Sequence record: OL631479.1
Length of the DNA: 64,000 bases
Strand: one strand, 5' to 3'
Origin: Escherichia phage ECML-10
The first letter of the stretch is position 1; every line of letters starts with the position of its first letter. Shown piece by piece: positions 2,995 through 53,055 of this stretch. Under the pieces are notes generated by a model. That model saw only the letters and a list, made by a program, of their open reading frames with translations. It was not told where the DNA came from and searched no databases. Position numbers and translations under genes: made by a program.

Positions 2995-3112
2995 AGCAAT
3001 CCCCCGTTTTAATTTTAATGATAGTATACCTAACTGTTTTGTTAATTTCAAGTGTTGACACTAGGTTGTTTGTGTGGCAGGATAGACTGACAAAATGACA
3101 AATGAGGAACGT

Positions 3113-4030: not shown

Positions 4031-4377
4031 AGAAGTTGATTGTGTGGCTGGATGATTTGAGAGATCCGTCAAATTATGGACTCCCAGACGCTGTTTGGCT
4101 GAAGAATTCCTCCGAGTTTATGGATTTTATTAACGATAAGGGAAAGCTCTACAGACGCGTTTCTGAGTGGCATATGGACAACGACTTAGGAGAAGTATTC
4201 GAAGGATATGATTGCCTATCCATGTTGGAGGAAAAATTTGTATTCGGTAAGCCTCCAGTGGTTGACAACGTGAAGATTTTCGTACATACTTCTAATCCAT
4301 CAGCGGCTCGTAAATTCATGCTTGCAGCTGACTCGTTTAAAAAGTTTGGAATAGAGATTAAACAAAACATCTACTGA
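4027..4377 (+). CDS. hypothetical protein (117 aa)
   Basis: ATGA start/stop overlap with RNA ligase; WLDDLRDP, HMDNDLG and HTSNP conserved-looking motifs, family not recognised. Confidence 0.55.
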   Translation: MKKLIVWLDDLRDPSNYGLPDAVWLKNSSEFMDFINDKGKLYRRVSEWHMDNDLGEVFEGYDCLSMLEEKFVFGKPPVVDNVKIFVHTSNPSAARKFMLAADSFKKFGIEIKQNIY

Positions 4378-4385
4378 GGACACTT

Positions 4386-5147
4386 ATGCGACGACTGATT
4401 ATTATCTCCGGTGCTGGTTTGAGCGCTGAATCTGGTATTCCCACTTTCCGATCTGGTAGCACTGCAATGTGGGAGAATTTCAGCATCGATGAGGTGTGCA
4501 ACATCCACACCTTTGCCAAGAACTACTATAAGGTGCATGACTTTTACAATGCACGTCGTGTAGCTCTGGGCAGTGTTGATCCTAACCTTGCACATCTTCG
4601 GATCGCTGAGTGGTATTCCCGCTGGTCTGGTCGTGTGATCAACCTTACCACCAATGTAGATGATTTGCTGGAGCGTGCTGGTGTAAAACATGAAGATATT
4701 TTACATGTCCACGGGTATTTGCCTGAAATCACCTACGAAGATGCTGAAGGTAATGATGTAATTAAAAATATCGGATACACGGAGGTAGATACAGGTAAGT
4801 ATACCTGGGTTAAGCCCAATGTAGTGTTCTTCGGTGAGGTTGCTCCTAAGTATACAGACATGTATGACCTGTTGACATCTCTCACAAGCAATGATATGGT
4901 GATCCTGGTAGGTTGTTCTAACACAGTTATTAATTTTAACTGGGAATTGTTTCCTGCTACTTGTAAAGGCACAAAACTGCTGATTGTAAACAAGTATGAT
5001 TCGCAGAGTGCAGATGGAAGTGGCATTTCACGTAGCGACCTTTATCAATATGAGGATCGCGGGATCCCTGTATGGTTTAACGGTGCTGTTGACGCTTTCT
5101 CTGATAAAGTATTTATTGAAACTGTAGAAAACTTTATGGAACTTTAA
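4386..5147 (+). CDS. SIR2-family NAD-dependent deacylase/ADP-ribosyltransferase
   Basis: Sirtuin signature GAGLSAESGIPTFRSG near N-terminus and HVHG catalytic His motif. Confidence 0.75.
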   Translation: MRRLIIISGAGLSAESGIPTFRSGSTAMWENFSIDEVCNIHTFAKNYYKVHDFYNARRVALGSVDPNLAHLRIAEWYSRWSGRVINLTTNVDDLLERAGVKHEDILHVHGYLPEITYEDAEGNDVIKNIGYTEVDTGKYTWVKPNVVFFGEVAPKYTDMYDLLTSLTSNDMVILVGCSNTVINFNWELFPATCKGTKLLIVNKYDSQSADGSGISRSDLYQYEDRGIPVWFNGAVDAFSDKVFIETVENFMEL

Positions 5148-5160
5148 AAGGAGACCTTTA

Positions 5161-5874
5161 ATGCTGAATACTAAACTGATCGACAACCTGGAAAAACTGT
5201 CTCAGCCTGAAAACTACCTTTGGTCTGCCAACTGGGTGGAAAACTGGAACCGTGTGGCAGCTAAGGTGAAAAAATCATACACACCATTCGAATTACAGCT
5301 TAGCTTCATTGAGGAAGAGTTCAATGAAGTTTTGGAAGAGCTGGAGAAAGGTGATGGTGGAGATCACTTGCTAAAAGAGGCCTGCGATCTTCATGTTGTC
5401 ACAAGTTATGCCGCTTATCTTGTTAATGACAATCACGAAAAGTGGTCAAACCTGTTTGATAATCCACGAGGTATTAAGTTCAAGATTGGTGAGTTCTATG
5501 ATACACTGATCGCTGCGAAAAACACCTCTAAGCAAAGAGCGTCTGCTTACCGCTTAGCAGAGTTGTCAACAGCTTTGCTGTTCCAGCTTCGCGGTGATGT
5601 GTGCGGGATGATGCGTAAGGTTCTCAAATCGAATGACAGCAAGTTTGCACGGGTCAACCATCTACGGTATTCACACGGTGCCAGTGCAGATATGCCTGCT
5701 GAACAACTCATCGAGTTGGAGATTAAAGATCTTGAGCGACGCTTTGATGGTCGATATGAAGGTTTTGTTGCCAAGGAAGAATTCTACAACGGTAATAAAG
5801 TTATCATATTCCTTGACAGTAAAGGTAAGATCATGAAGCCTTCAAGCTTCAAGGATGTAACAGAGTATATTTAA
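5161..5874 (+). CDS. hypothetical protein; possible MazG-like NTP pyrophosphohydrolase N-domain
   Basis: ORF track; SD AAGGAG; EEEFNEVLEELEKGDGGD resembles the MazG/HisE EExxE..D motif (tentative). Confidence 0.5.
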   Translation: MLNTKLIDNLEKLSQPENYLWSANWVENWNRVAAKVKKSYTPFELQLSFIEEEFNEVLEELEKGDGGDHLLKEACDLHVVTSYAAYLVNDNHEKWSNLFDNPRGIKFKIGEFYDTLIAAKNTSKQRASAYRLAELSTALLFQLRGDVCGMMRKVLKSNDSKFARVNHLRYSHGASADMPAEQLIELEIKDLERRFDGRYEGFVAKEEFYNGNKVIIFLDSKGKIMKPSSFKDVTEYI

Positions 5875-18345: not shown

Positions 18346-18374
18346 TTGACTAATAGTATTAGATAATCTATAAT
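18346..18374 (+). promoter_or_regulatory. sigma70-type promoter (TTGACT-17-TATAAT)
   Basis: -35 at 18346-18351, -10 at 18369-18374. Confidence 0.5.
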
Positions 18375-18414
18375 AATGGCTCACTTTGTTGGTGAGCCAG
18401 AAATGGAGACAGAT

Positions 18415-18876
18415 ATGAGTAATGTTATGATTCCTAAAAAGACATTTATTTCAGTTACTTTGGATTTCCTATCTACCGTTCCCGGGTTTAACGTTCGCAC
18501 ACGAAACGGTCTCCGAGCTGCACTCTTTGCCGTAGGGTTTGATTTAAAAAGTATTGATGTTCTTCGTGGAAAAAACGTTCGATGCAAAAATAAGCCAACA
18601 CATTATCGAAAGGCAGATGTATTTGCTGGTGTCATGCGTGCAGACTTTAGATACCCGCAAATGTATAACGGTGTAGATATTTTAGATGTGGATAAAGCAC
18701 CTGGTGAGGCAATGCTTGTTCAAGATCTTCCGTATGATATTCCTGTAGAGGATCGTGTTAATGTAAGAAAGTATACAAAACAATCTGAAAAGGCTGAAGA
18801 TATTCATATTGTTGATGAACCTTTCAATTTTGAAGATCTGCATCGCCTGGAAAAATTATTCGGTATTGAAAGCTAA
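18415..18876 (+). CDS. hypothetical protein
   Basis: Track start 18376 lies upstream of predicted transcript start; moved to ATG 18415 (SD GGAGA). Confidence 0.45.
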   Translation: MSNVMIPKKTFISVTLDFLSTVPGFNVRTRNGLRAALFAVGFDLKSIDVLRGKNVRCKNKPTHYRKADVFAGVMRADFRYPQMYNGVDILDVDKAPGEAMLVQDLPYDIPVEDRVNVRKYTKQSEKAEDIHIVDEPFNFEDLHRLEKLFGIES

Positions 18877-23681: not shown

Positions 23682-24483
23682 ACCTCTGTCAACGGTTAAC
23701 AAACTGGCCGTTGTAAAACTCTCCTAACCTCATAAGAGGGGTCGGTAAATCCGGCTAACGGGGAACGCTAAGGCGAAAGCTATGCCAATCCCGTGACTAG
23801 TTCTTACAGGAGTTGGAACGGTTGTAACGACTAACGAAAGGCAGAGATGCTTGACAAACATTTCTGAACCAAGTAGTGTAGGGGTTAGTTGAAATACTAA
23901 CTTCGAAATGGAGAGGCTCTATGAAAAAGATCATTCTTAATGGTGAAGAATCAAACTATGTGATTGATGAGGTTGGAAACGTATACGGAAAACGTGGAAT
24001 GCTACACCCAATATTGTGGGGAGGTTATGGAAAAGGTAACAAGCATGTTAAACGCCGTTATATGTACTCTTTCAACCACAAAGGTAAAAAGATTCGAATC
24101 CAAACCTCAAGGATTGTTGCCTTGTATTGTTTGCCGGATGTCCCAGAAGACCCTGAAAACTGGGAAGTGAATCATAAAGATGGCAATACATTGAATGATC
24201 ATCCGTCTAACCTAGAGTGGGTTTTGCCGGAAGATAATAAGAGACATGCTTTCCGAACAGGACTTTGTCCAGGTAAGTGCTATAGGAAAGTGCAGGCATA
24301 CAAAGGGAAAACCTTGGTGGGTGAATATCCTTCACTCTATGCCTGTGCAAAAGCCTTAAATTTGAACGTAGGTAACGTTCATAGGGCTATCGAAGGAAAT
24401 GCCGAAGGTAAGCATCTCACAATAAAGGGTTATTATCTTATTGAAGTAGAGTAAGAGATAGTCTGGCCCTGTGGAAACACAGG
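23682..24483 (+). mobile_element. probable group I intron interrupting nrdD (boundaries approximate)
   Basis: About 800 nt between two nrdD halves whose products align contiguously with E. coli NrdD; contains a free-standing HNH ORF; exon 1 would end in T and the proposed intron in G. Confidence 0.5.
23921..24454 (+). CDS. intron-encoded HNH homing endonuclease
   Basis: VNHKDGNTLNDHPSNLEWV HNH motif; NUMOD-like YVIDEVGNVYGKRG; SD GGAGAGG. Confidence 0.7.
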   Translation: MKKIILNGEESNYVIDEVGNVYGKRGMLHPILWGGYGKGNKHVKRRYMYSFNHKGKKIRIQTSRIVALYCLPDVPEDPENWEVNHKDGNTLNDHPSNLEWVLPEDNKRHAFRTGLCPGKCYRKVQAYKGKTLVGEYPSLYACAKALNLNVGNVHRAIEGNAEGKHLTIKGYYLIEVE

Positions 24484-44329: not shown

Positions 44330-44620
44330 CCATGCCATTCGTTTGCATGACAATAATTAACTTGTTTACAATCTTTCACTGGCTATGCCAGGTGACCTTT
44401 GGTCACCCCTTCGGGTGTTTCTATGACATAATATAAAAGCAGGGCAACTATTAGAAGATCTATAGTTGCCTTGCTTGTTATGTCACGATTAACTAAATAC
44501 AAGGCAACTATGATCTGATTAATAGTTTGCAGACAAACTATCACGGGGGTGATGGTTACTGCTTTTATATTATGTCGCGACTCCGTCGCGCCATGCCATT
44601 CGTTTGCATAGTTGCCTTAT
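44330..44620. repeat. complex of direct and inverted repeats (GGCAACTAT iterons, 18-bp inverted pair, CCATTCGTTTGCAT direct pair)
   Basis: GGCAACTAT/ATAGTTGCC four times; GACATAATATAAAAGCAG at 44424-44441 with reverse complement at 44561-44578; CCATTCGTTTGCAT at about 44334 and 44596. Confidence 0.55.
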
Positions 44621-45234
44621 TGTTACGAATAAAACAATTGCATTGTTAATGATTTCTTATCTTTCTCTTAGTCATCTAATGATTCCAGTCAGTATAGTAA
44701 TGTACAGTAAACATTAGACGACTAAAGATTTCTCTGTTTATTATAACTCACCGTTATAATTTCGAGCTGTTTACGAAAAATGTTGACATCCTAGCCGATT
44801 TATGTTATGCAGTTTACACGAATAATTATTTTATGCAGGTATTGACTATTCCGTTATTCTATGGTTGGAATAAATACTTAGCAGGCTATAGACTGGTGAG
44901 CGTACGTAAATTCTGAGATCTGGCGGCTATAGTTATACTCGATTTTTCACGTAGAACACGCTTTTGTGGTTATGTAAGTGCATGAATTATAAGAATTTTT
45001 ATTTGTTGACAAGATATTGAAGATATGCATCAGGTTAAAATTTATGCAATAGCGGCATTACGTGCAATTTTGGAAGGAAAAGCGTGTAAAAATGGCCCTG
45101 CTACCACACAATGAAAGGTTATGCAATAGCTATTTTACATGTATATTTGTACAGTGTGTGGGATTGATGGCTCGTCAATTATTCCACTTGCCAGGTAGGG
45201 CCGTTTGTGGTAGGAAAAGAGAAGACAAAAAGAA

Positions 45235-45251
45235 AGGGGCTTTAAGCCCCT
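45235..45251 (-). terminator. rho-independent terminator for minus-strand block
   Basis: AGGGGC-TTTAA-GCCCCT; minus-strand reading is followed by TTTCTTTTT. Confidence 0.55.
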
Positions 45252-45270: not shown

Positions 45271-45534
45271 TTATTTGTTGCTCATCCAGTTTTCCCAAGC
45301 TGCCTGATAATCTGCCTCACTACGGCGGATCTCTTCTTGTTCTTCAAGTCGGATCTCTTCTTCCAGGTACCCCAAGATGTCAGCCTTTTTGGTCTGGCGT
45401 AGCATCCAGTCATCTTTTTTGCGGGTAAAGATCTTATAAGCTTTCTCGCAAACCTCTTTTTTGCTACCTTTCTGGACTTCCAGAACACGATAAGCCATAT
45501 ATTGAACTAGTTTGAGCTGGTCAAGACGTTTCAT
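45271..45534 (-). CDS. hypothetical protein (87 aa)
   Basis: SD AAAGAGGAAAAA before ATG 45534. Confidence 0.55.
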   Translation of the reverse strand: MKRLDQLKLVQYMAYRVLEVQKGSKKEVCEKAYKIFTRKKDDWMLRQTKKADILGYLEEEIRLEEQEEIRRSEADYQAAWENWMSNK

Positions 45535-45596
45535 GATGTTTTTCCTCTTTATGTGGTTTTTGTTCAGTGGGCCTTTTGGCCCGTGTCATTATCTTA

Positions 45597-45869
45597 TTAC
45601 TTACGGCGGCAGAATTCAAGCGTTTTTAATTGATAATCTTCCTCAGCCTGGAGTACAACCGCCTCGATCATTTCGTTGGCATTGTTGAAGCCATACCCTT
45701 TAGCGAACTCATCCGCACCACCTTCGTGATCATGTTCTGCGTTCATCGCTTCCACGAAATGGAATTCAAGATTATTGAGATAAGGGCTTGATGTTCCGTC
45801 CTCTTTTTCGATGAGATCCCAAATAGCATTAAAACGTGATTCGACTTCTTGATTAATCCAGCTTGACAT
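45597..45869 (-). CDS. hypothetical acidic protein (90 aa)
   Basis: SD GAGAGGAAAA before ATG 45869. Confidence 0.55.
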   Translation of the reverse strand: MSSWINQEVESRFNAIWDLIEKEDGTSSPYLNNLEFHFVEAMNAEHDHEGGADEFAKGYGFNNANEMIEAVVLQAEEDYQLKTLEFCRRK

Positions 45870-46080
45870 AATGTTTTCCTCTCTTCTGGTTGTTGTGTGG
45901 GCACTTTTGCCCCTTCAAGATAAATGTTACCCCACCACCTGGCAGATGTCAACGGTTTTTATAGTTCTTATATGACAGGCAGGCCCGGTGATTGTCTCCC
46001 CCCGTCGCCAGGTGCCTGCCGTGTAATAAGTATAACAAAAAACAGGACCATTGCAAGCCCTGTTTTCTAGTTAATAAGGA

Positions 46081-46272
46081 TTATATTTTTTCGCCTATGT
46101 AGTCCGGTCGGTTTTTCTCTGTCATGCGCTTTAGCAATTCTTGCATGTTACTTATGGCTTGTAGTGTATCCTCTTCCAGACTTGAATCAACATAATCAGG
46201 ATCGTCTATGACCTTTCTATGATTATGATAACGCAGTACCGCCAATACCTTTCTAACTTGTTCAACATTCAT
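46081..46272 (-). CDS. hypothetical protein (63 aa)
   Basis: ORF track; weak SD. Confidence 0.45.
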   Translation of the reverse strand: MNVEQVRKVLAVLRYHNHRKVIDDPDYVDSSLEEDTLQAISNMQELLKRMTEKNRPDYIGEKI

Positions 46273-46421
46273 TTTTATCGCTCTTTAAAACAAGGTGCCA
46301 ACCGTTTCTAGTAGATCACTGACCACCAGGACAATACTGATCAGCACATATCTAACCATAAGGGGAAAGAGCGCCAGCGATCCCGCCACAATCCCCAAGG
46401 TAATGATTATCTTTTTCACGG

Positions 46422-46706
46422 TTAACGGTTAACGTAAGCTTTACCGTTCACGGTTATGGGTAGATCCTCCAGGTCTGGATCTTCCTTAAGGTCGCGAGCA
46501 AGCTCACCGCACCGGATACCCTCGAATCCGTAGTACTCTGTTGTACCGTCATTAAAAGTTTTAGCGGCAAGGCATAAGCGATAAGTAACCCCGATTTGAT
46601 TGACGGCATGGATATCCGTTAGATCAACCTCTTTTGCCAGCTCTTTAGCCATTACAGGCGCATTAAGTCCAACAACCAGGGCAACTACTGCGATCATCTT
46701 TTTCAT
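46422..46706 (-). CDS. secreted/periplasmic small protein (signal peptide)
   Basis: MKKMIAVVALVVGLNAPVMAKE signal-peptide-like N-terminus; SD AGAGGA. Confidence 0.55.
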   Translation of the reverse strand: MKKMIAVVALVVGLNAPVMAKELAKEVDLTDIHAVNQIGVTYRLCLAAKTFNDGTTEYYGFEGIRCGELARDLKEDPDLEDLPITVNGKAYVNR

Positions 46707-46797
46707 TGTGTCTATCCTCTTTCTGCTACGTTTAAGGCGGCGGTAACCGCCTGTTTATGTTTTGTTGGTTAATTTTCGGGTATCGGTATAAATTAAA

Positions 46798-47031
46798 CTA
46801 TGCTGTACGCTCAACTATAACAACGGCTTGAGGGATCTCACCTTCAACCACTATCAAGGCTTTTTTCTGCGTGATAGATATCTTTACCCGCTTCAGTGTG
46901 GCGGTAAAATCTTTCATTTCGTCACGTGGTGTTTTAGTGCAATGCCAGATCTCGGGCTTGCCGATCTGTAAGCTGCGCAAGAATTCCGTTTTACCTGTTT
47001 TATTCGTGATCATTTGATTCACCTTATCCAA
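46798..47031 (-). CDS. hypothetical protein
   Basis: ORF track; alternative ATG at 47013. Confidence 0.45.
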   Translation of the reverse strand: MDKVNQMITNKTGKTEFLRSLQIGKPEIWHCTKTPRDEMKDFTATLKRVKISITQKKALIVVEGEIPQAVVIVERTA

Positions 47032-47180
47032 TACCGTGGGAAGATAGGATCATGTTAGCCATAGTTGCAACCACTCCAACCGATAATGCCAGGCCAACTA
47101 CTACAACCGTGAAAATTTTATCTAACATGATTCTACCCTCATTAATGGGCGTTGCCTTATTGCCCCGCCCTACGAAATAC

Positions 47181-47208
47181 ATTCTACCTGATTTACAATT
47201 GTTGTCAA
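47181..47208 (-). promoter_or_regulatory. sigma70-type promoter on minus strand (TTGACA-16-TAGAAT)
   Basis: Plus-strand tgtcaa at 47203-47208 and attcta at 47181-47186. Confidence 0.45.
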
Positions 47209-47214
47209 ACTATT

Positions 47215-47394
47215 TTAACGATAATCATCATATGCTTTATTGACCTGGCGAATATAACATTCAAAAGCTAGATCAATAGATTTATATTCACGGATATATT
47301 CACCATAGGAAACCACATACATTTCTATAGCTTCCTCATATGCGAGGAGAATAGAATCTAAGCCTACGATCTCAGTCTTTGCAATAATAGCCAT
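47215..47394 (-). CDS. hypothetical protein (59 aa)
   Basis: SD GAGGA before ATG 47394; just below track size cutoff. Confidence 0.4.
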   Translation of the reverse strand: MAIIAKTEIVGLDSILLAYEEAIEMYVVSYGEYIREYKSIDLAFECYIRQVNKAYDDYR

Positions 47395-47470
47395 GATTTT
47401 TATCCTCTTTGTGGTTGGTGGGGCTTGTTGCCCCCATTTGATTTATATATTACAGTCTTATATGGTCATG

Positions 47471-47704
47471 TCAACTATTTTCAAAAAATTTTTCTGCTGT
47501 GATATTTTTCCCGGTAGGGTTCGCTACTTTTAAAATTCTATCATGCACCGGACGCCCGAAAGAATAAGATCCGTATACAGTAAACCAATAATTGCCGTCA
47601 GGCTGTACTATTACCGTCGCATATGGTACGCCTTTTTCGTTTTTGCTGACAAAATAGATCACATTGCCATTAATAGCCTCGGCGCGTTTAATTTGTTCCA
47701 TCAT
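47471..47704 (-). CDS. hypothetical protein (77 aa)
   Basis: SD AGGTGA; 5' leader hairpin GGGGCC-GAAAA-GGCCCC upstream. Confidence 0.55.
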   Translation of the reverse strand: MMEQIKRAEAINGNVIYFVSKNEKGVPYATVIVQPDGNYWFTVYGSYSFGRPVHDRILKVANPTGKNITAEKFFENS

Positions 47705-47767
47705 GATGATTCACCTATCTTTATTTTTTCATAGTTTCAGGAGGGGGCCTTTTCGGCCCCGCCAGGT

Positions 47768-48052
47768 TTATTTATTGATAGCGTGCAGCGGGAAAGGTAC
47801 GCCAGGTTGATAGATAACCTTTACAACCTCATCAGGACAAAAGAAATTGCAGAACTCACCGCAATAGGCCTCATCCTCTTTCAACTCTTCATCAACATAC
47901 TCAAAAAAGTAGTCGATGCTTGGATAATCTTGACCAGGGTTATAATCAACCATAGTGAGGACCAGTTCAAGATCATTGCGGATGATATGCATACCAGCTT
48001 TTAAATACTTCGCTTCCATTTTTACTACATCGCCAGCGGTAACAATAGCCAT
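47768..48052 (-). CDS. hypothetical protein
   Basis: Start moved to ATG 48052 (SD AGGAG). Confidence 0.5.
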   Translation of the reverse strand: MAIVTAGDVVKMEAKYLKAGMHIIRNDLELVLTMVDYNPGQDYPSIDYFFEYVDEELKEDEAYCGEFCNFFCPDEVVKVIYQPGVPFPLHAINK

Positions 48053-48184
48053 GGTTTTAACTCCTGTTTCTGTTAATGATTGGAGGCATAACCCCCCTCG
48101 ACAACTCTTATTATCCATATTGTAGGGCTTGATGCAAGTACTTCTTTAAAAAATTTTTAAGTGCCTTGGAGGCCGCTGTAACGC

Positions 48185-48219
48185 CAAAATAATAAAGGCC
48201 ATGCAACCGCATAGCCTTT
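48185..48219 (-). terminator. possible terminator hairpin
   Basis: AAAGGCCATGC-AACC-GCATAGCCTTT (one mismatch); minus-strand reading followed by ATTATTTTGG. Confidence 0.4.
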
Positions 48220-48277
48220 ATGTGATTATATCGCTGCAGGCCCTGCTAGGGGCCTTATTTTGCATCATTTGCCGGAA

Positions 48278-48586
48278 CTATACAGAGAAAACATCGTTCA
48301 CAATAGCGATCACAATGCCGCCCACCTTGTCACGGTCAACAATGCACAAATCACCATAGATCATGTGGTAGTCTGGATGATCTTTCACGGAATAGTCAAT
48401 GAGCGTTTTCTTGTCGTCCAGCTTTGTAACTTCCATTCTCATAACGATATGAGAATCATCAAAGGCATTATTCCGAAAAGTCATAGCCTGACCACCATGG
48501 CACCCAGTGATCTCCACTTCCACACCGTCTACGATCTGACCATTAAAGAAATAAAGATTATTAGCCAGGATAAACATGTTTATCAC
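48278..48586 (-). CDS. hypothetical protein (102 aa)
   Basis: SD AAGGAG before ATG 48586. Confidence 0.55.
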   Translation of the reverse strand: MINMFILANNLYFFNGQIVDGVEVEITGCHGGQAMTFRNNAFDDSHIVMRMEVTKLDDKKTLIDYSVKDHPDYHMIYGDLCIVDRDKVGGIVIAIVNDVFSV

Positions 48587-48635
48587 TCCTTGTTAACTGC
48601 GTGTTATTTTTACCACGATTAAAATTTACTTTACT

Positions 48636-48659
48636 GATGGCCCTGGCGTCAAGGCCATC
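48636..48659. repeat. conserved stop-codon-adjacent stem-loop element, copy 1 (GATGGCC-N10-GGCCATC)
   Basis: Element tttactttactGATGGCCctggcgtcaaGGCCATCtaaaaataaattta; core ends 12 nt before stop of 48671..48871. Confidence 0.6.
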
Positions 48660-48670
48660 TAAAAATAAAT

Positions 48671-48871
48671 TTACAGGCCTACAATCTCTTTGATTCGTTT
48701 AACTGCTGCCTCAGCGCCTTGGGGGTAGAAATTATGGTAACCGATCACGCGAGTGATACTAATTGCAGTTTGATGATCTTCATAATAGCCCTTGAAGATT
48801 TCTTGACCGTCAATCAGCACGGCAATTTTTTCTTCTTTTTTGAAGTTAATAACGCGGATATTGTTGCTCAT
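48671..48871 (-). CDS. hypothetical protein (66 aa)
   Basis: SD AAAGGAGAAA before ATG 48871. Confidence 0.55.
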   Translation of the reverse strand: MSNNIRVINFKKEEKIAVLIDGQEIFKGYYEDHQTAISITRVIGYHNFYPQGAEAAVKRIKEIVGL

Positions 48872-48974
48872 TTTGTTTCTCCTTTCTGGTTTTTGTGTTG
48901 GTGGGGATTAGCTCCCCGTTGATTATTATTATCCATATTTCGGACCGGATTGCAACACCCCGGAAGAAAAATTT

Positions 48975-49008
48975 TTTGAAAAAGTTAGGCCCCCAGGGAT
49001 CGGGGGCC
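48975..49008 (-). terminator. rho-independent terminator
   Basis: GGCCCCC-AGGGATC-GGGGGCC; minus-strand reading followed by TAACTTTTTCAAAAAATTTTTC. Confidence 0.55.
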
Positions 49009-49012
49009 GTTA

Positions 49013-49132
49013 TCAGTTACTTACAGCGATAAAATACATCCCTACGCCTAACAATATTTCAAGGGCGATGATCTCAAGCCATACCATAACCCGGCGCACC
49101 TTATCGGTGCGGGGCTTATCCTTGGTTGTCAT
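49013..49132 (-). CDS. 39-aa membrane micro-protein
   Basis: SD AAAGGGGGAGA before ATG 49132; hydrophobic VMVWLEIIALEILLGVGMYFIAV; below track cutoff. Confidence 0.4.
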   Translation of the reverse strand: MTTKDKPRTDKVRRVMVWLEIIALEILLGVGMYFIAVSN

Positions 49133-49374
49133 CGTCTCCCCCTTTCATCCTGGTAGTAGTGACGTGGTTTACAATGGCCCCCAGGAGTACCATCACCACG
49201 CACATCACAAGAAAAATTATCTCTGTCGTTGTTCGATCCATTGTTATAAAATTCCTTAAGATCAGGCCTGAAAATAAAGCGTTCGTTATTGAATCCATCA
49301 CGCCAGGCGGCTGGCTTCAAATCTTCATCAAAGGGATTAATTAACGTGGTATTATTTAAACGGCTGGCCCACAT
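49129..49374 (-). CDS. hypothetical protein
   Basis: Start moved to ATG 49374 (SD GAGAGGAA). Confidence 0.45.
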   Translation of the reverse strand: MWASRLNNTTLINPFDEDLKPAAWRDGFNNERFIFRPDLKEFYNNGSNNDRDNFSCDVRGDGTPGGHCKPRHYYQDERGRR

Positions 49375-49723
49375 ATTTTCTATTCCTCTCAAATAGGCGA
49401 TCCGCCTCAGTTAAACAAATCTCATGGGCGTGATCTCTGGTTTTAGCTTCATCGAAAACCTGTTGTGCAAGGCTGCAGCGTAGGGAGACTGGAAGATCAC
49501 TATAATAGGCGTTGACAAATGTTTGCGCGTCATACAGGTCGGAAAATACTTTACCCTTTCTATTATCGCCTTTGTCAACAATTGCAAGGATAACAAGTAC
49601 AATAGTTGCAACCACCCCCAGGAAAATAGATATAATAAACCATAAAAAGGCGGATCTACCCATCTTGCCAGCGATCCAGGCGTTAAACAAGGCAACTAAT
49701 ACGGCCAAAATAATAAATTCCAT
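49352..49723 (-). CDS. membrane protein (2 N-terminal TM helices)
   Basis: Start moved to ATG 49723 (SD AAAGAGGT); MEFIILAVLVALFNAWIAG and FLWFIISIFLGVVATIVLVILAIV. Confidence 0.5.
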   Translation of the reverse strand: MEFIILAVLVALFNAWIAGKMGRSAFLWFIISIFLGVVATIVLVILAIVDKGDNRKGKVFSDLYDAQTFVNAYYSDLPVSLRCSLAQQVFDEAKTRDHAHEICLTEADRLFERNRKYVGQPFK

Positions 49724-49787
49724 TCTATGTACCTCTTTTGCAGTTCTGTTTAACAATAAGGCGGCAAATATGCCGCCTGTTACCTGA

Positions 49788-50168
49788 TTAAAAATTATCG
49801 CCGTAAATCTTTCCGCTTTCTGCCCACACCACCACGCGGGGCATACTATCCCACACGTCTTGTTTTAGATTGAGCGCGTGCAATTCTTCGGTGGTGCCCA
49901 TACCAGGCACGGGCTGATTGTATACTGCAAAACGACCACCTGCATAATCATAGGCCAGGGTTAAATCACACTGAATCATCTTTTTGATCATGGCGTTGAG
50001 CATAGCGTTAGCCGCATACTGGTCACGTTTTAAAGGCAACTCTTTGATTAGTTTGCGATAGTTTTCAATGTGATCGCACACTGTTTCACGTGGAAGATCT
50101 TTCATATCCTCGCGAAAGGTAACCAGGTTAAACATAACGGTGTCAATAGCTTTAGTAGTGTTTTTCAT
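49788..50168 (-). CDS. hypothetical protein (126 aa)
   Basis: SD AAAGAGGAAAAC before ATG 50168. Confidence 0.55.
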   Translation of the reverse strand: MKNTTKAIDTVMFNLVTFREDMKDLPRETVCDHIENYRKLIKELPLKRDQYAANAMLNAMIKKMIQCDLTLAYDYAGGRFAVYNQPVPGMGTTEELHALNLKQDVWDSMPRVVVWAESGKIYGDNF

Positions 50169-50482
50169 AATGTTTTCCTCTTTGTTTTGTGTGGGGCAAA
50201 CGTCTTGCCCCCCTTGAGTTTTAATATAGCAAGTTTTTAGATTATTGCAACACTTTATTTATGAAAAACTCATCTCTCCATATTCATCCACATCAAACCG
50301 CCAATCATTGGCCTCAATAAGGCCGATCAGGTTTTCGGTAGTGAACTGTTCTAGATAGGCCTCCTCCAGGTCTACGTAAACCTTGCGGGATAGCTCCCGT
50401 ACCGTCTCGGTGATCAGCTCTTCCAGGTCTTCCACTTTGTTTTCTTTGTTAGTGGCGGGAAGTTTTCCCGTTTACATGCTTA

Positions 50483-50510
50483 AGTATACTTATCGAGATT
50501 TACTTGTCAA
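50483..50510 (-). promoter_or_regulatory. minus-strand promoter (TTGACA-16-TATACT) with downstream GGGAAAACTTCCC hairpin
   Basis: Plus-strand tgtcaa at 50505-50510, agtata at 50483-50488; hairpin at 50457-50469. Confidence 0.5.
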
Positions 50511-50760
50511 CACTATTTTTTAAATTATTGTGGCGCAAAATGTTTAAAATCTCTTCAACGTCATCAACACGGCGGCAATTTTTAAACGCTACCAATTGCC
50601 CCAAGATTTTGATCACTGGGCGGCCTTGCCAGTGCCCCTGGAGAAAGCGCGCTTTAACTTTATCGGTGGAACTATCACGCCACCAAACTGCTTTATTATT
50701 GCAGTAGTAAAAATTATTCAGGACAACATCAACTTTATCAAAATTTTTTAATTTACGCAT
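50500..50760 (-). CDS. hypothetical protein (86 aa)
   Basis: SD AGGAAGGAG before ATG 50760. Confidence 0.55.
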   Translation of the reverse strand: MRKLKNFDKVDVVLNNFYYCNNKAVWWRDSSTDKVKARFLQGHWQGRPVIKILGQLVAFKNCRRVDDVEEILNILRHNNLKNSVDK

Positions 50761-50795
50761 GGCGTTTACTCCTTCCTTCTTGCTTTGATGTGGTT

Positions 50796-50824
50796 AGTAT
50801 ATCCGGACTGTTCCAAGGTGTCAA
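50796..50824 (-). promoter_or_regulatory. minus-strand promoter (TTGACA-17-TATACT)
   Basis: Plus-strand tgtcaa at 50819-50824, agtata at 50796-50801. Confidence 0.5.
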
Positions 50825-50969
50825 TCTTTAAATAAAATCACTGTTAATGATATTTTTAACACCATAAAACGGCCCTAGGTGATGTTTTCAGGTCAATAAA
50901 GGGGATTGCATAGGTAGGGGCTTTTGTGGCGTTTGTGGGGCCAACCAGGGGCGCTATTCGTAGGATAGA

Positions 50970-50999
50970 AATAAAAAGCCCCGCACAATGGCGGGGCGT
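50970..50999 (-). terminator. rho-independent terminator
   Basis: GCCCCGC-ACAATG-GCGGGGC; minus-strand reading followed by TTTTTATTTC. Confidence 0.6.
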
Positions 51000-51005
51000 T
51001 GGTTG

Positions 51006-51203
51006 CTATTTGTCTTTATGGCGGTACCGTTCCGCCTGTCGTTCACGTTCCAAAAGCAGGCCCGGCAGTTTACGATCATAATGATTCCGCCAGATCTTCC
51101 CAAATCTTTTTGGCTTATTTAGTTTATTGTTACGCTGGCGGCGTTCCGGCAGCTCTTCGGAATCATGAGATCGCTTTACAATCTTTTCAAAATTAATCTT
51201 CAT
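51006..51203 (-). CDS. small basic protein
   Basis: Start moved to ATG 51203 (SD AAGGGGGG); Arg/Lys-rich. Confidence 0.5.
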   Translation of the reverse strand: MKINFEKIVKRSHDSEELPERRQRNNKLNKPKRFGKIWRNHYDRKLPGLLLERERQAERYRHKDK

Positions 51204-51540
51204 ATATTCCCCCCTTGCTAACTTCAATATTGGCCTGAATAGCCCGGATACGGCGCTTTATAACTTCCTGATCTGTGTGATCGTATCCCCAAAAGTCTAC
51301 AATTTTTGCGCCCCCCGCTTCCAGGCGGTACAGTGTTTCCTGCATTTTGTAAGCCGGGATCGGTCGCGGTGTTACTTGGTCACCTTCTTTATTTTTATAC
51401 TTTATAATATAATCTTCATTATCGTTGAATGTCCAAAATGGATATTCTGCAAGGGCGGTACTTTCCTTTTTATCCTGGATCTTGTTTACAATTAAAGCCG
51501 TAGCAATAGCGCCAATAATAAAACTAGCCCCGCTGATCAT
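51193..51540 (-). CDS. membrane-anchored protein
   Basis: Start moved to ATG 51540 (SD AAAGGAGA); MISGASFIIGAIATALIV. Confidence 0.5.
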   Translation of the reverse strand: MISGASFIIGAIATALIVNKIQDKKESTALAEYPFWTFNDNEDYIIKYKNKEGDQVTPRPIPAYKMQETLYRLEAGGAKIVDFWGYDHTDQEVIKRRIRAIQANIEVSKGGIYED

Positions 51541-51615
51541 GTACTTTCTCCTTTCATTGTGTTGATAAACTATCTTTATAGATGGCCCTGCTACCAGGAC
51601 CACCGAAAAACCAGC

Positions 51616-51861
51616 TTATTTGACGATACCGACAAAACAGATCCCGCCTTCCCCTATATAGGCAATATCGGTAATTTGATAATTTGTCAAGATCCGCGTG
51701 TTCAGATCATTAATAAAATCGGTCATCGCGTTGGTGTAGTTGTCTTCCGTGTCTAAGGCATAATCCCAGGTGTAAACCTTTTTACGTCCGAAGCCTTTTA
51801 CCATGATACGGGCGCTTTTGGTGTTGGTAGGGGCATAATATTTGGTGATTAGTGCTGCCAT
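51616..51861 (-). CDS. hypothetical protein (81 aa)
   Basis: SD AGGAG before ATG 51861. Confidence 0.55.
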   Translation of the reverse strand: MAALITKYYAPTNTKSARIMVKGFGRKKVYTWDYALDTEDNYTNAMTDFINDLNTRILTNYQITDIAYIGEGGICFVGIVK

Positions 51862-51915
51862 GGTTTTAACTCCTATGCATTAGTTCAGTGTTAACAGTAT
51901 AACGTTTACTTTATT

Positions 51916-51939
51916 GATGGCCCTGGAGTCAAGGCCATC
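51916..51939. repeat. conserved stop-codon-adjacent stem-loop element, copy 2
   Basis: tttactttattGATGGCCctggagtcaaGGCCATCtaaaaataaattta; core ends 12 nt before stop of 51951..52292. Confidence 0.6.
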
Positions 51940-51950
51940 TAAAAATAAAT

Positions 51951-52292
51951 TTACTCGTTTTCTTCCAGTTCTGCAAGCTCTTCTTTCACTTCTTCAAGCT
52001 CTGTATGCAATTCCTGGTATTCTTCATCGTCCTCAATATCCAGGCTGTCGATGTAGTCGCTAAATCCGCAGCGGTAAGCGATAGGATCTAGCTCCTTGAG
52101 GATACGCGACGGAAGAAAAGAAATGTTTCCGATCATAATTTCGCCGTAGATCTCGTCTAACCATTCATCATAGTTTTCGTCGTACTTGTCCTCGTCGATT
52201 TCAAAGTTATCGATCTTGTTCTCAAGGTCTGCGATCTGTTTTTTCAGCGCGGCGATCTGCATAGCTTTTTCTGCGGCGGTCATAGTAGTCAT
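51951..52292 (-). CDS. hypothetical acidic protein, predicted coiled coil
   Basis: SD AAAAGGAGAAAA before ATG 52292. Confidence 0.55.
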   Translation of the reverse strand: MTTMTAAEKAMQIAALKKQIADLENKIDNFEIDEDKYDENYDEWLDEIYGEIMIGNISFLPSRILKELDPIAYRCGFSDYIDSLDIEDDEEYQELHTELEEVKEELAELEENE

Positions 52293-52343
52293 AGTGTTTT
52301 CTCCTTTTGTGTGCTCTGGGAAGTTTTCCCGTTTACGTGTTTA

Positions 52344-52371
52344 AGTATATCGATCTAAGTTAGTTTGTCAA
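52344..52371 (-). promoter_or_regulatory. minus-strand promoter (TTGACA-16-TATACT) with downstream GGGAAAACTTCCC hairpin
   Basis: Plus-strand tgtcaa at 52366-52371, agtata at 52344-52349; hairpin at 52317-52330. Confidence 0.5.
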
Positions 52372-52491
52372 TTAAAAATTTAAGAAAAATTTTGCAAAAC
52401 TGTTAGCGCTACTCATTAACATTTGCGCCAGGATGTAACCGACAACGCAAACGATAATAGTTATCTTTGTGTATTGGCGTGTAGTGCTCAT
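52369..52491 (-). CDS. 40-aa hydrophobic micro-protein
   Basis: SD AAAGGGGG before ATG 52491; below track cutoff. Confidence 0.35.
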
Positions 52492-52536
52492 CTTAAAGCC
52501 CCCTTTTTCGCTTAGTTGAGATTAGTTTACTTTATT

Positions 52537-52560
52537 GAAGGCCCTGGAGTCAAGGCCATC
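52537..52560. repeat. conserved stop-codon-adjacent stem-loop element, copy 3 (one mismatch in stem)
   Basis: tttactttattGAAGGCCctggagtcaaGGCCATCtaaaaataaactta; core ends 12 nt before stop of 52572..52976. Confidence 0.55.
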
Positions 52561-52571
52561 TAAAAATAAAC

Positions 52572-52976
52572 TTAGTAAGTTTTCAGTACTTTACCGTCCA
52601 ACCTGTCAAGCTGGATCTCGATAGCTGCAGAAAACCTATTGTAAACCACATCGCCCATAGAATCCAACCAGTCTATGACATTATACACTTGCTCTTTGTT
52701 CTTGCAGGTCCGGATCCGTTTCATGATGTAAGCCGGATCAATATTGGTACTCTCGTTGGTGTTCCCCTGTACCTGGTTTGCCGTATTAGTTACATCTTTA
52801 ATGGCCTTTACCACCACCTGGAATGGCTTTAAGGTGCCTTTTGCGTTCATCTCACGCGCTTTTGCGGCGCGGTTGTTATATGTTACACAACGGCGGCAAA
52901 TGTTGACCAAATGCATGTCAATAATTTTTTCATCGTTTGCCAGTTCGTTCATGATGCGGCGTACGTTCTTATTCAT
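52572..52976 (-). CDS. hypothetical protein (134 aa)
   Basis: SD AGAGGAAAAG before ATG 52976. Confidence 0.55.
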   Translation of the reverse strand: MNKNVRRIMNELANDEKIIDMHLVNICRRCVTYNNRAAKAREMNAKGTLKPFQVVVKAIKDVTNTANQVQGNTNESTNIDPAYIMKRIRTCKNKEQVYNVIDWLDSMGDVVYNRFSAAIEIQLDRLDGKVLKTY

Positions 52977-53055
52977 AGCTTTTCCTCTGTGTTGGCGGGA
53001 TGTTCCCCGCCTTTTGTGTCTAGTTTACTTAAATTTTGCAGCGTGTCAATGATTT

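What the first reader, a model, noticed from the sequence alone, without database searches (positions are those of the whole stretch)
45535..53040. Recurrent 5' leader architecture before minus-strand genes: GC hairpin, CACAA-rich spacer, AAGAGGAAAAC, ATG
Upstream of at least seven minus-strand genes (starts 45534, 45869, 47394, 48871, 50168, 52292, 52976) the leader contains a short GC-rich hairpin (for example GGGGCAA-GACGT-TTGCCCC, GGGCC-AAAA-GGCCC, GGCGGG-GAACAT-CCCGCC). This is followed by (A)CACAA(A)...ACCAGAA and an extended SD AAGAGGAAAAC about 5 nt before ATG. The similarity exceeds what a shared SD alone explains and suggests a duplicated translation-initiation cassette or a shared regulatory site.
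Basis: seen in the sequence. Interest (0 to 1): 0.5.

Follow-up and report, generated by a model that had tools for sequence, protein, structure and literature searches.

The report
Phage early-gene promoter-hairpin leader cassettes
An rV5-type E. coli phage puts the same small control unit (host-type promoter, short GC hairpin at the predicted start of the RNA, an A/C-only stretch, strong ribosome-binding site) in front of about ten small early genes; the pattern is real, but it is a fairly ordinary phage expression-and-shuffling cassette of a kind already described in T4-like phages.

Summary
All seven flagged minus-strand leaders, plus three more (starts 47128, 48052, 50435), share one collinear layout.

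- **Hairpin:** GC-rich, its 5' base 8-13 nt after the -10 hexamer.
- **Spacer:** 5-20 nt, 87% A+C and rich in ACA.
- **Ribosome site:** purine Shine-Dalgarno (SD), then the start codon.

The window is a Vequintavirus (rV5-like phage), and the region is its ORFan-rich, presumably early, arm. The same layout recurs in relatives: across the window and 12 loci of Vequintavirus and Stephanstirmvirinae relatives, 94 of 155 predicted leaders carry a hairpin, 43 of them exactly 10 nt after -10.

The hairpins lack T-tracts, so they are not intrinsic terminators. Their stems and loops differ, so they are not one protein site.

Gene-content differences between relatives have crossovers inside the cassettes. 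This matches the PeSL (promoter-early stem-loop) cassettes of T4-like phages.

The most likely mechanism has three parts:
- a 5'-proximal stem-loop that hinders RppH/RNase E entry;
- an unstructured, U-poor ACA translational enhancer with a strong SD, giving stable, well-translated early mRNAs;
- cassette repeats that act as recombination substrates.

It is a new member of a known kind. Interest is low to moderate.

The parts
45532..45619 (-). Cassette before the 87-aa ORFan (ATG 45534): -35 TTGAAT 45619-45614, -10 TAAGAT 45596-45591, hairpin GGGCC-AAAA-GGCCC 45582-45569, spacer actgaacaaaaaccacataa, SD AGAGGAAAAA
   Evidence: leader fold z = -3.6; ORFan phrog_11701. Weakest promoter match of the set (8 of 12).
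45867..45952 (-). Cassette before the 90-aa ORFan (ATG 45869): -35 TTGACA 45952-45947, -10 TAACAT 45929-45924, hairpin GGGCA-AAAG-TGCCC 45912-45899, spacer acacaacaaccagaag, SD AGAGGAAAAC
   Evidence: z = -2.3
47126..47208 (-). Cassette before the 34-aa ORF (ATG 47128): -35 TTGACA 47208-47203, -10 TAGAAT 47186-47181, hairpin TAGGGCG...CGCCC 47170-47147 (the type common in Stephanstirmvirinae), SD GAGGG
   Evidence: z = -3.9. It is a chimera of two adjacent cassettes of relative L005, with the crossover in the TAGGGCGG arm.
47392..47474 (-). Cassette before the 59-aa ORFan (ATG 47394): -35 TTGACA 47474-47469, -10 TAATAT 47452-47447, hairpin GGGGC-AACAA-GCCCC 47434-47420, spacer accaaccacaa, SD AGAGGATAAAA
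   Evidence: z = -2.1. The swap breakpoint in L003 and L007 lies at its -35.
48050..48137 (-). Cassette before the 94-aa ORFan (ATG 48052): weak -35 TTGCAT 48137-48132, -10 GATAAT 48115-48110, hairpin GGGGG(G)-ttatg-CCTCC with one G.U pair 48097-48082, spacer aatcattaacagaaa, SD CAGGAG
   Evidence: Weakest member (z = -0.4). Orthologues keep a G-run/C-run hairpin with different sequence.
48869..48955 (-). Cassette before the 66-aa ORFan (ATG 48871): -35 TTGCAA 48955-48950, -10 GATAAT 48933-48928, hairpin GGGGA-GCTAA-TCCCC 48917-48903, spacer accaacacaaaaaccaga, SD AAGGAGAAAC
   Evidence: z = -3.1. L003 and L007 have GGGGAG-ACA-CTCCCC instead.
50166..50250 (-). Cassette before the 126-aa ORFan (ATG 50168): -35 TTGCAA 50250-50245, -10 TATATT 50228-50223, hairpin GGGGCAA-GACGT-TTGCCCC 50211-50193, spacer acacaaaacaa, SD AGAGGAAAAC
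   Evidence: z = -3.1. Orthologous genes at 64-69% identity in two of three distant phages (L014, L015) carry different hairpins at the same place; the third (L016) has none.
50433..50510 (-). Cassette with promoter and hairpin but no SD (GTG 50435, 58-aa remnant): -35 TTGACA 50510-50505, -10 TATACT 50488-50483, hairpin CGGGAA-AAC-TTCCCG 50470-50456
   Evidence: z = -2.3. It is a paralogue of the 52371 cassette (54 nt, 80%). A window-specific 450-nt deletion runs from its spacer into the coding sequence present in all 7 relatives.
52290..52371 (-). Cassette before the 113-aa ORFan (ATG 52292): -35 TTGACA 52371-52366, -10 TATACT 52349-52344, hairpin GGGAA-AAC-TTCCC 52330-52318, spacer agagcacacaa, SD AAGGAGAAAAC
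   Evidence: z = -1.6
52974..53049 (-). Cassette before the 134-aa ORFan (ATG 52976): -35 TTGACA 53049-53044, -10 TAAACT 53027-53022, hairpin GGCGGG-GAACAT-CCCGCC 53011-52994, spacer aacac, SD AGAGGAAAAG
   Evidence: z = -4.0. All 7 relatives carry a GGGAA-TGT-TTCCC hairpin core here, six of them as the full GGCGGGAA-TGT-TTCCCGCC (L001 has GACGGGAA).

Best explanation
**What it is (well supported).** This is a repeated early-gene expression cassette of an rV5-like phage (Vequintavirus). Each copy has four parts in fixed order:
- a host sigma-70 promoter with an AT-rich upstream flank;
- a GC stem-loop that starts about 10 nt after the -10 hexamer, which is about +2 to +6 of the predicted transcript;
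- a 5-20 nt spacer made almost only of A and C, with clustered ACA motifs;
- a purine-rich SD (AGAGGAAAA or AAGGAGAAA) 7-9 nt before the start codon of a small ORFan.

The cassettes are the counterpart, in rV5-like phages, of the PeSL (promoter-early stem-loop) cassettes of T4-like phages.

**How it works (inferred).**
- The stem-loop sits at the 5' end of each early mRNA. There it limits access of RppH and the 5'-end sensor of RNase E, prolonging mRNA life.
- The spacer is poor in U and G. It cannot pair with the hairpin or the SD, offers few RNase E sites, and carries ACA translational-enhancer motifs.
- Together with the strong SD, this gives an open, context-independent, highly active ribosome-binding site.

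**Evolutionary role.** The cassette sequence recurs in front of many genes, so the copies also serve as homology patches. Small genes are gained, lost and swapped through them. This, together with selection, explains why the leaders resemble each other beyond the SD.
For: **Shown directly.**
- Promoters lie immediately upstream of every hairpin. Predicted promoters are annotated at the corresponding positions in relative Gotham.
- The hairpin is anchored to the -10 element (10.8 +/- 2.0 nt; 43 of 94 exactly 10) and not to the ATG (23.3 +/- 4.5 nt).
- The hairpin is the only stable structure in the leaders, with z-scores down to -4.0.
- There is no T-tract after the hairpins: mean 1.1 T in the next 8 nt, and only 5 of 94 have four or more. 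True terminators in the same region do have T-runs (45251, 49008, 50997).
- Spacers are 87% A+C and ACA is enriched fourfold.
- The SD-to-start region is more accessible than in 95 other genes of the window: P(unpaired) 0.68 against 0.49, P = 5e-4.
- The sense strand folds slightly better than the antisense strand (78 against 53 segments, P = 0.018). G.U pairs are present and the 5' arm is G-rich at about 3:1. This points to an RNA-level role.
- Orthologous leaders keep a hairpin at the same place with different stems, loops or loop orientation.
- Crossovers between relatives lie at the -35, in the hairpin 5' arm, and in the spacer/SD. The flanking duplicated stretches are 10-61 nt long.
- Downstream genes are ORFans.

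**From the literature.**
- 5' secondary structure stabilises E. coli mRNAs because RppH and RNase E need single-stranded 5' ends (PMC3997798).
- ACA and CA-rich elements upstream of the SD are translational enhancers in enterics (PMC3879156).
- PeSL definition and its role in shuffling (PMC2839356).
Against: - No transcription start sites are mapped for any rV5-like phage that I could find. Promoters and the 'early' label are predictions.
- The predicted single-stranded 5' overhang (about 2-6 nt) may be too long for full 5'-end protection in some copies.
- Hairpins in this phage group are not always at transcript 5' ends:
  - in Certrevirus they lie between -35 and -10;
  - the window's type-B repeat has the stem-loop over the -35;
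  - several intergenic hairpins have no promoter.
  A role on read-through transcripts, or at the DNA level, therefore cannot be excluded.
- RNAalifold on a MAFFT alignment of orthologues found no strictly compensatory pair. The structural evidence is 'each variant folds', not formal covariation.
- The fixed 10-nt spacing could partly reflect common descent of the cassettes.
- One copy (48052) folds no better than shuffles.
Confidence: 0.6

Rival explanations
1. The stem-loops act on transcription coming from upstream. They would be attenuators, terminators or 3'-end stabilisers that insulate each small gene from the strong promoters in front of it. This is the role proposed for PeSL stem-loops in T4-like phages.
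For: - The PeSL authors measured strong reduction of reporter expression by one G-run/C-run stem-loop.
- In related genera, and in the window's type-B repeat, the stem-loop lies within or upstream of the promoter, where it can only act on upstream transcripts.
- Promoter-less intergenic hairpins exist at 47760, 46752, 48255 and 49778.
Against: - No U-tract follows the hairpins, whereas the phage uses canonical hairpin-plus-T-run terminators elsewhere.
- A terminator placed after its own promoter would also abort that promoter's transcripts.
- The position is tied to the -10 element, not to the upstream stop codon.
Confidence: 0.15
2. The hairpin, alone or with the CA spacer, is a shared regulatory site. 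It would be bound by a phage or host factor that switches the early genes off or on together. Candidates are an RNA-binding protein, a nuclease, an antiterminator of the boxB/N type, or the host sRNA GcvB.
For: - In Stephanstirmvirinae the hairpin is nearly one sequence (TAGGGCGGCAATGGTGCCGCTC) repeated many times per genome.
- All hairpins have the G-rich arm 5'.
- The CA spacers are complementary to the GU-rich R1 region of GcvB: duplex energy -16.6 against -12.8 kcal/mol for other leaders, P = 0.001.
Against: - In this window the stems and loops differ between copies, and orthologues change loop sequence, length and orientation.
- No Rfam family matches.
- GcvB complementarity follows automatically from the A/C composition.
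- Sequence uniformity in Stephanstirmvirinae can result from concerted evolution by recombination.
Confidence: 0.1
3. There is no function of its own. The similarity would be a by-product of recent duplication and recombination of one ancestral promoter-leader, with the palindromes merely tolerated or acting only as DNA-level recombination hot spots.
For: - Pairs of cassettes are clearly paralogous.
- Crossovers fall inside the cassettes.
- There is no strict covariation among orthologues.
Against: - The sequence between -10 and hairpin, the stems and the loops are all diverged, yet pairing, spacing, A/C composition and ACA content persist across two phage subfamilies.
- Hairpins are far more frequent than in shuffled leaders.
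- The start region is measurably more open than in other genes.
Confidence: 0.1

Closest known systems
PeSL (promoter-early stem-loop) cassettes of T4-like phages (Arbiol et al. 2010, PMC2839356; Comeau et al. 2014, PMC4122927)
   Same: - Intergenic units of about 80-100 bp in an ORFan-rich variable region.
- Upstream stop codon in an AT-rich flank in several copies, then a strong sigma-70-type promoter.
- A G-run/C-run stem-loop, then the SD and start codon of the next gene.
- Many copies per genome, with crossovers between copies that add, remove or swap genes.
- One of the five described PeSL subclasses has the stem-loop downstream of -10, as here.
   Different: - The phage lineage is unrelated (Vequintavirinae and Stephanstirmvirinae).
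- Here the stem-loop position is nearly fixed at about 10 nt after -10. In RB49 and phi1 it is mostly between -35 and -10 or over -10.
- It is followed by a distinctive A/C-only, ACA-rich spacer.
- There is no U-tract, so the terminator role proposed for PeSLs is doubtful here.
- Mini-circle formation was not tested.
5'-terminal stem-loop mRNA stabilisers of E. coli (ompA and papA 5' UTRs; Belasco laboratory, reviewed in PMC3997798)
   Same: A short stable hairpin at or near the 5' end of the transcript, followed by a single-stranded region and a ribosome-binding site.
   Different: The 5' end is only predicted here, and the unpaired 5' overhang may be 2-6 nt. No half-life data exist. Here the element is multiplied in front of many genes.
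ACA-motif / CA-rich translational enhancers upstream of the SD (yifK, dppA, gltI; Yang et al. 2014, PMC3879156)
   Same: Clusters of ACA in an unstructured stretch just 5' of the SD. They occur in enterobacterial hosts and are position-tolerant.
   Different: Those are host genes regulated by the sRNA GcvB. Here they are phage leaders combined with a 5' hairpin. Enhancer activity and GcvB sensitivity are untested.
Intrinsic (Rho-independent) terminators
   Same: GC-rich stem of 5-7 bp with a short loop in an intergenic position.
   Different: No U-tract follows, and the element lies downstream of a promoter and upstream of the gene it precedes.

Membership tests
PeSL cassette | Sigma-70-like early promoter (-35, -10) with an AT-rich upstream flank, in an intergenic position | tested here: met
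   Ten promoters with 16-17 nt spacers, most matching 9-11 of 12 consensus positions and two weaker (45534 and 48052), with A/T-rich flanks. Activity was not measured.
PeSL cassette | Adjacent sequence able to form a stable stem-loop, often a G-run followed by a C-run | tested here: met
   Hairpins of -4 to -13 kcal/mol with a G-rich 5' arm.
PeSL cassette | 3' end formed by the SD and start codon of the downstream gene, preferentially an ORFan | tested here: met
   SD and ATG in 9 of 10 copies. All ten proteins scanned (nine cassette genes and the product of start 50760) fall in PHROGs of unknown function with no significant Pfam match.
PeSL cassette | Many copies clustered in a gene-content-variable (hyperplastic) region | tested here: met
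   Ten copies in 7.5 kb. Relatives cover only 39-100% of the region, in 4-9 pieces.
PeSL cassette | Recombination between copies generates insertions, deletions and replacements of the flanked genes | tested here: met
   Crossovers at the -35 (47469), in the hairpin arm TAGGGCGG (47170 region), in the spacer/SD (45558-45540), and between two type-B copies (61-nt overlap). This was inferred from comparison with 7 relatives.
PeSL cassette | Stem-loop functions as a transcription terminator or attenuator | not testable with these tools
   Sequence argues against intrinsic termination, since no T-tract follows, but only an assay can decide.
PeSL cassette | Occurs in T4-like myoviruses | tested here: not met
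   The window is a Vequintavirus (95.7% to phage navn). This concerns taxonomic scope, not mechanism.
5'-terminal stem-loop mRNA stabiliser | Stem-loop begins within a few nucleotides of the transcript 5' end | tested here: inconclusive
   The hairpin starts 8-13 nt after the -10 hexamer. With a start site about 7 nt after -10, this leaves about 2-6 unpaired nt. No start-site data exist.
5'-terminal stem-loop mRNA stabiliser | Removal shortens mRNA half-life in an RppH/RNase E-dependent way | not testable with these tools
   Needs rifampicin-chase experiments.
ACA-motif translational enhancer | One or more ACA motifs in a single-stranded stretch just upstream of the SD | tested here: met
   2.0 ACA per 26 nt against 0.53 elsewhere. 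The spacer is unpaired in the predicted folds.
ACA-motif translational enhancer | Mutation of ACA lowers translation | not testable with these tools
   Needs reporter fusions.
Intrinsic terminator | GC hairpin immediately followed by a U-rich tract | tested here: not met
   Mean 1.1 T in the 8 nt after the hairpin; 5 of 94 have four or more.
Single operator or RNA-protein recognition site | Same recognition sequence at every copy | tested here: not met
   Stems and loops differ among the ten copies and among orthologues. No Rfam match.

The most novel reading that the evidence does not exclude
The 5' hairpin plus U-poor leader could be a 'self' mark. It would let phage early mRNAs escape an RNase E-dependent wave of host-mRNA destruction that the phage itself triggers.
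- rV5 gp11 was reported as a probable homologue of T4 Srd.
- T4 Srd stimulates RNase E on host mRNA while phage mRNA is stabilised.

A second, weaker reading is that the ACA-rich spacers copy the host's CA-rich enhancers. Phage early genes would then be exposed to repression by the host sRNA GcvB, whose R1 region is complementary to them.

Neither reading is excluded and neither was tested. No Srd gene was looked for successfully in this window.
Probability: 0.12. Interest if true: 0.6.

Novelty: new member of a known kind. Interest (0 to 1): 0.3.

Why it matters
**Significance is modest.**
- The finding extends the PeSL idea from T4-like phages to two other large subfamilies of coliphages, Vequintavirinae and Stephanstirmvirinae. 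PeSLs are self-contained promoter-hairpin-SD units that both express ORFans and shuffle them.
- These subfamilies are widely used in phage therapy and biocontrol. I found no description of the element in the literature that was searchable.

**Practical uses.**
- The element gives a rule for annotating early promoters and true start codons in these genomes. Examples are the 34-aa gene at 47128, the start at 48052 rather than 48118, and the truncated gene at 50435.
- The compact hairpin + A/C spacer + SD leader is a natural example of an insulated, structure-free 5' UTR that synthetic biologists could reuse.

**Possible wider question.** If the hairpin turns out to shield phage mRNA from phage-enhanced RNase E activity, it would become a testable case of how a virulent phage tells its own RNA from host RNA.

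Tried and rejected
- **Intrinsic terminator reading:** rejected because no T-tract follows the hairpins.
- **Single protein- or operator-site reading:** rejected because stems and loops differ.
- **Known RNA families:** none in the region or the window (Rfam). There are no tRNAs.
- **Formal covariation:** RNAalifold on a MAFFT alignment of eight orthologous 50168 leaders gave 0 compensatory pairs, because the variants differ by indels and re-registered stems. I therefore do not claim covariation, only conserved foldability.
- **More orthologues from IMG/VR:** only 5 loci found.
- **Literature:**
  - No transcriptome or start-site map for rV5-like phages.
  - The rV5 genome paper lists promoters but not leader hairpins.
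  - The PVP-SE1 genome paper is not held.
- **'GAAATGGAGA' motif:** shared by two late-region leaders but not enriched in the window.
- **Srd:** the ten minus-strand early-arm proteins between 53 and 63 kb that I scanned are endonuclease VII-like, phosphatase-like or of unknown function, with no Srd.
- **First automated hairpin scan:** its strict criteria missed some copies with weak promoters or long loops, so the ten cassettes were curated by hand.

Full report
**Where the window comes from.** The 8.4 kb around the finding matches about 250 phage genomes. The best hits are Escherichia phages navn (95.7%), JES2013, HdK5 and others, all in genus Vequintavirus (rV5-like myoviruses). The minus-strand genes between 45.2 and about 54 kb are short ORFs. 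Those I scanned fall in PHROGs of unknown function and have no significant Pfam match. The region lies near a genome end in several relatives. It ends at a 0.9-kb non-coding stretch that faces the plus-strand genes.

**Check of the observation.**
- A promoter-to-ATG alignment of ten leaders is collinear: -35, -10, G-run, C-run, A/C stretch, purine SD, ATG (A1).
- Besides the seven listed starts, three more belong to the set: 47128, 48052 and 50435.
- 'ACCAGAA' is present in only two leaders. The exact AAGAGGAAAAC is present in three; the others have AGGAG or GAGGA variants.

**Is it more than chance?**
- Folding each predicted leader gives a single 5' hairpin with a largely unpaired remainder.
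- Z-scores against dinucleotide shuffles are -3.6, -2.3, -3.9, -2.1, -0.4, -3.1, -3.1, -2.3, -1.6 and -4.0.
- The hairpin's 5' base is 8-13 nt after the -10 hexamer in all ten, and the distance from -10 to ATG is 45-57 nt.
- The spacer between hairpin and SD is 71 A, 35 C, 7 G and 9 T of 122 nt (P about 3e-16 against the regional composition). Other start regions of the window are T-rich instead.
- ACA occurs 2.0 times per 26 nt against 0.53 in 102 other start regions (P = 1e-5).

**Relatives.**
- I fetched seven Vequintavirus loci (L001-L007) and more distant ones: Phapecoctavirus ESCO25 (L008), Justusliebigvirus alia and UAB_1 (L009, L010), and Certrevirus DU_PP_IV (L011). I also fetched five IMG/VR loci.
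- The architecture is even more uniform in Stephanstirmvirinae. Dozens of leaders read '-10, gtatcacg, TAGGGCGGCAATGGTGCCGCTC, a purine- and A-rich spacer, AGAGAG-type SD, ATG'. That hairpin recurs several times per ~150-kb contig in IMG/VR.
- Over 155 unique predicted promoter-to-start leaders from the window and 12 loci, 94 carry a GC hairpin.
  - Its start is 10.8 +/- 2.0 nt after -10 (43 exactly 10). The hairpin-to-ATG distance is 23.3 +/- 4.5 nt.
  - The 8 nt after the hairpin hold on average 1.1 T.
  - The spacers are 55% A, 24% C, 9% G and 12% T.
- With stricter criteria, hairpins occur in 30-58% of real leaders of the Vequintavirus and Stephanstirmvirinae relatives, against 1-7% of shuffled ones.
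- In Certrevirus the GC stem-loop sits between -35 and -10 instead, and the leaders are strongly CA-rich.

**Conservation of structure.**
- Orthologous leaders keep a hairpin at the same place while the sequence changes.
  - For gene 50168 the stems are GGGGCAA/TTGCCCC (window), GGCGGGCGA/TTGCCCGCC (L007) and GGGGGCGAG/CTTGCCTCC (L004). L003 has an inverted loop, acgtc instead of gacgt.
  - For 48871 the variants are GGGGA-GCTAA-TCCCC and GGGGAG-ACA-CTCCCC.
  - For 52976 the variants are GGCGGG-GAACAT-CCCGCC and GGCGGGAA-TGT-TTCCCGCC.
  - One hairpin is lost, 47394 in L001.
- Genes only 64-69% identical to the 50168 product carry different hairpins at the same position in two of three distant phages (L014, L015); the third (L016) has none.
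- RNAalifold on a sequence alignment found no strictly compensatory pair, because the variants differ by indels. I claim conserved foldability, not formal covariation.
- Across 133 promoter-proximal segments the sense strand folds slightly better than the antisense strand (78 against 53, P = 0.018). G.U pairs occur and the 5' arm is G-rich about 3:1. This modestly favours an RNA-level role on the sense transcript.

**What the hairpins are not.**
- They are not intrinsic terminators. They lack T-tracts, whereas the same region has canonical terminators with T-runs at 45251, 49008 and 50997.
- They are not a common operator or protein site. Stems and loops differ between copies.
- They match no Rfam family.

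**Recombination.**
- Direct-repeat families in the region are almost all regulatory pieces:
  - a 55-nt 'type-B' element in 4 copies;
  - a 54-nt promoter+hairpin pair (50510 and 52371, 80%);
  - several leader, SD and ATG repeats.
- Comparing the window with seven relatives and reading the junctions shows gene-content differences whose crossovers lie inside these pieces:
  - Replacement of the 47394 gene in L003 and L007 runs from the -35 hexamer at 47469 to the next promoter.
  - The window's 47208 cassette is a chimera of two adjacent cassettes of L005, joined in the shared hairpin arm TAGGGCGG, with loss of the gene between them.
  - An extra gene in L001, L004 and L005 is flanked by two copies of the spacer+SD 'AACCACAyAAAGAGG'.
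  - L004 lacks two genes between two type-B elements (61-nt overlap).
  - A 546-nt insertion is flanked by copies of the terminator hairpin at 45251-45234.
  - A window-specific 450-nt deletion runs from the 50510 leader spacer into the coding sequence, leaving the 58-aa remnant at 50435.
- Viability filters breakpoints toward intergenic DNA. Even so, the duplicated 10-61-nt junction sequences show that the cassettes themselves were the recombining homology.

**Mechanism.** The closest concept is the PeSL of T4-like phages. A PeSL is an early sigma-70 promoter with an AT-rich flank, a G-run/C-run stem-loop in one of five positions (including downstream of -10), and the SD and start of an ORFan. 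PeSLs were shown to promote transcription and to mediate modular shuffling. For the leader itself I favour a stability-plus-translation design, for four reasons.
- RppH and the RNase E 5' sensor need single-stranded 5' ends, which explains the long-known stabilising effect of 5' stem-loops (PMC3997798).
- ACA and CA-rich elements just upstream of the SD are translational enhancers in Salmonella and E. coli (PMC3879156).
- An A/C-only spacer next to an A/G-only SD cannot form stable structure. Consistent with this, the -18 to +5 region is predicted to be more open than in 95 other genes of the window: 0.68 against 0.49 unpaired, P = 5e-4.
- The U-poverty of the spacer also removes the U-containing sites preferred by RNase E. 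This point is from my own knowledge of the RNase E cleavage consensus and was not tested here.

All functional steps are inferred. Start sites, half-lives and translation were not measurable here.

**Caveats.**
- The varying stem-loop position in other genera, in type-B elements and in promoter-less intergenic hairpins keeps alive the PeSL authors' view. In that view the stem-loops act on read-through transcripts, as attenuators or 3' stabilisers.
- The fixed spacing may owe something to common descent.
- No literature on leader hairpins or transcript maps in rV5-like phages was found in the searchable library. Absence there is not proof that it is undescribed.

**Speculative leads.**
- rV5 gp11 was reported as a probable Srd homologue. 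T4 Srd stimulates RNase E on host mRNA while phage mRNA is stabilised. A 5' hairpin could be what spares phage early mRNAs.
- The CA spacers are complementary to the GU-rich R1 region of host GcvB. I verified GcvB as L017 701-906, Rfam RF00022, 199 bits. Duplex energies are -16.6 against -12.8 kcal/mol (P = 0.001), but this follows largely from composition.

**Verdict.** The element is a PeSL-like early-gene expression and shuffling cassette, a new member of a known kind. Interest is low to moderate.

Noticed in passing
window 48620-48674, 51565-51619, 51900-51954, 52521-52575 (minus strand): A second repeat family ('type B', 55 nt, 4 copies) lies directly after stop codons: TAA, TTTATTTTTA, stem GATGGCC(TT)/(AG)GGCCATC with TTGAC(T/G) in the loop, about 18 nt, then TAAAC/TAAAT. 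It looks like a promoter with the stem-loop over the -35, which is a PeSL subclass. The 51619 copy keeps the stem with a different sequence (GGTGGTCCTG/CAGGGCCATC) but lacks TTGAC. Relative L004 has lost the two genes between two copies.
   Followed up: partly
window 44400-45230: This is a 0.9-kb non-coding stretch between the convergent transcription units; the rV5 paper also mentions a non-coding box. It holds four exact ATAGTTGCC copies in alternating orientation within 175 nt (expected 0.36 in the whole window) and a 36-nt direct repeat at 45037-45072 and 45114-45149. This looks iteron- or operator-like, possibly an origin or regulatory region.
   Followed up: partly
window 18346-18417 and 23851-23923 (plus strand, structural-gene region): Two leaders share a different layout: a sigma-70-like promoter, a 9-bp hairpin starting 1-2 nt after -10, then GAAATGGAGA, 5 nt and ATG. 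The decamer is not enriched in the window overall.
   Followed up: partly
window 50259-50510 (minus strand): The 58-aa GTG ORF at 50435 is a remnant. All seven relatives have about 450 more nucleotides and a 207-aa gene here. The window's deletion joins the leader spacer to an internal coding sequence with 7-19 nt of overlap.
   Followed up: yes
window 47744-47760, 46735-46752, 48238-48255, 49759-49778 (minus strand): These are GC hairpins in intergenic spacers with no recognisable promoter. Only 49778 has a partial T-run. They may act on polycistronic transcripts as 3' stabilisers, attenuators or processing sites.
   Followed up: no
L008-L010, L003, L005; IMG/VR loci L018-L027: A near-invariant hairpin, TAGGGCGG(C)AAT(G/A)GT(G)CCGC(T/C), lies about 8-10 nt after the -10 of many early promoters in Stephanstirmvirinae. 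It also occurs in some Vequintavirus cassettes, and up to 7 copies were found per IMG/VR contig, in three separate stretches. The loop AAUNGU is conserved, which could mean sequence-specific recognition or concerted evolution.
   Followed up: partly
window 47128 and 48052 (minus strand): Mechanical ORF lists give longer ORFs starting at 47182 and 48118, inside the promoters. The cassette layout and the relatives' annotations place the true starts at 47128 (34 aa) and 48052 (94 aa).
   Followed up: yes
query positions about 2966-5623 of window:45200-53100:- (about window 47480-50135): Some of the small ORFans have nucleotide-level matches (70-75%) in unrelated phages. These include jumbo Asteriusvirus-like phages (phAPEC6, 121Q), phage Av-05 and a T7-like Kayfunavirus, which suggests wide horizontal movement of these genes.
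   Followed up: no
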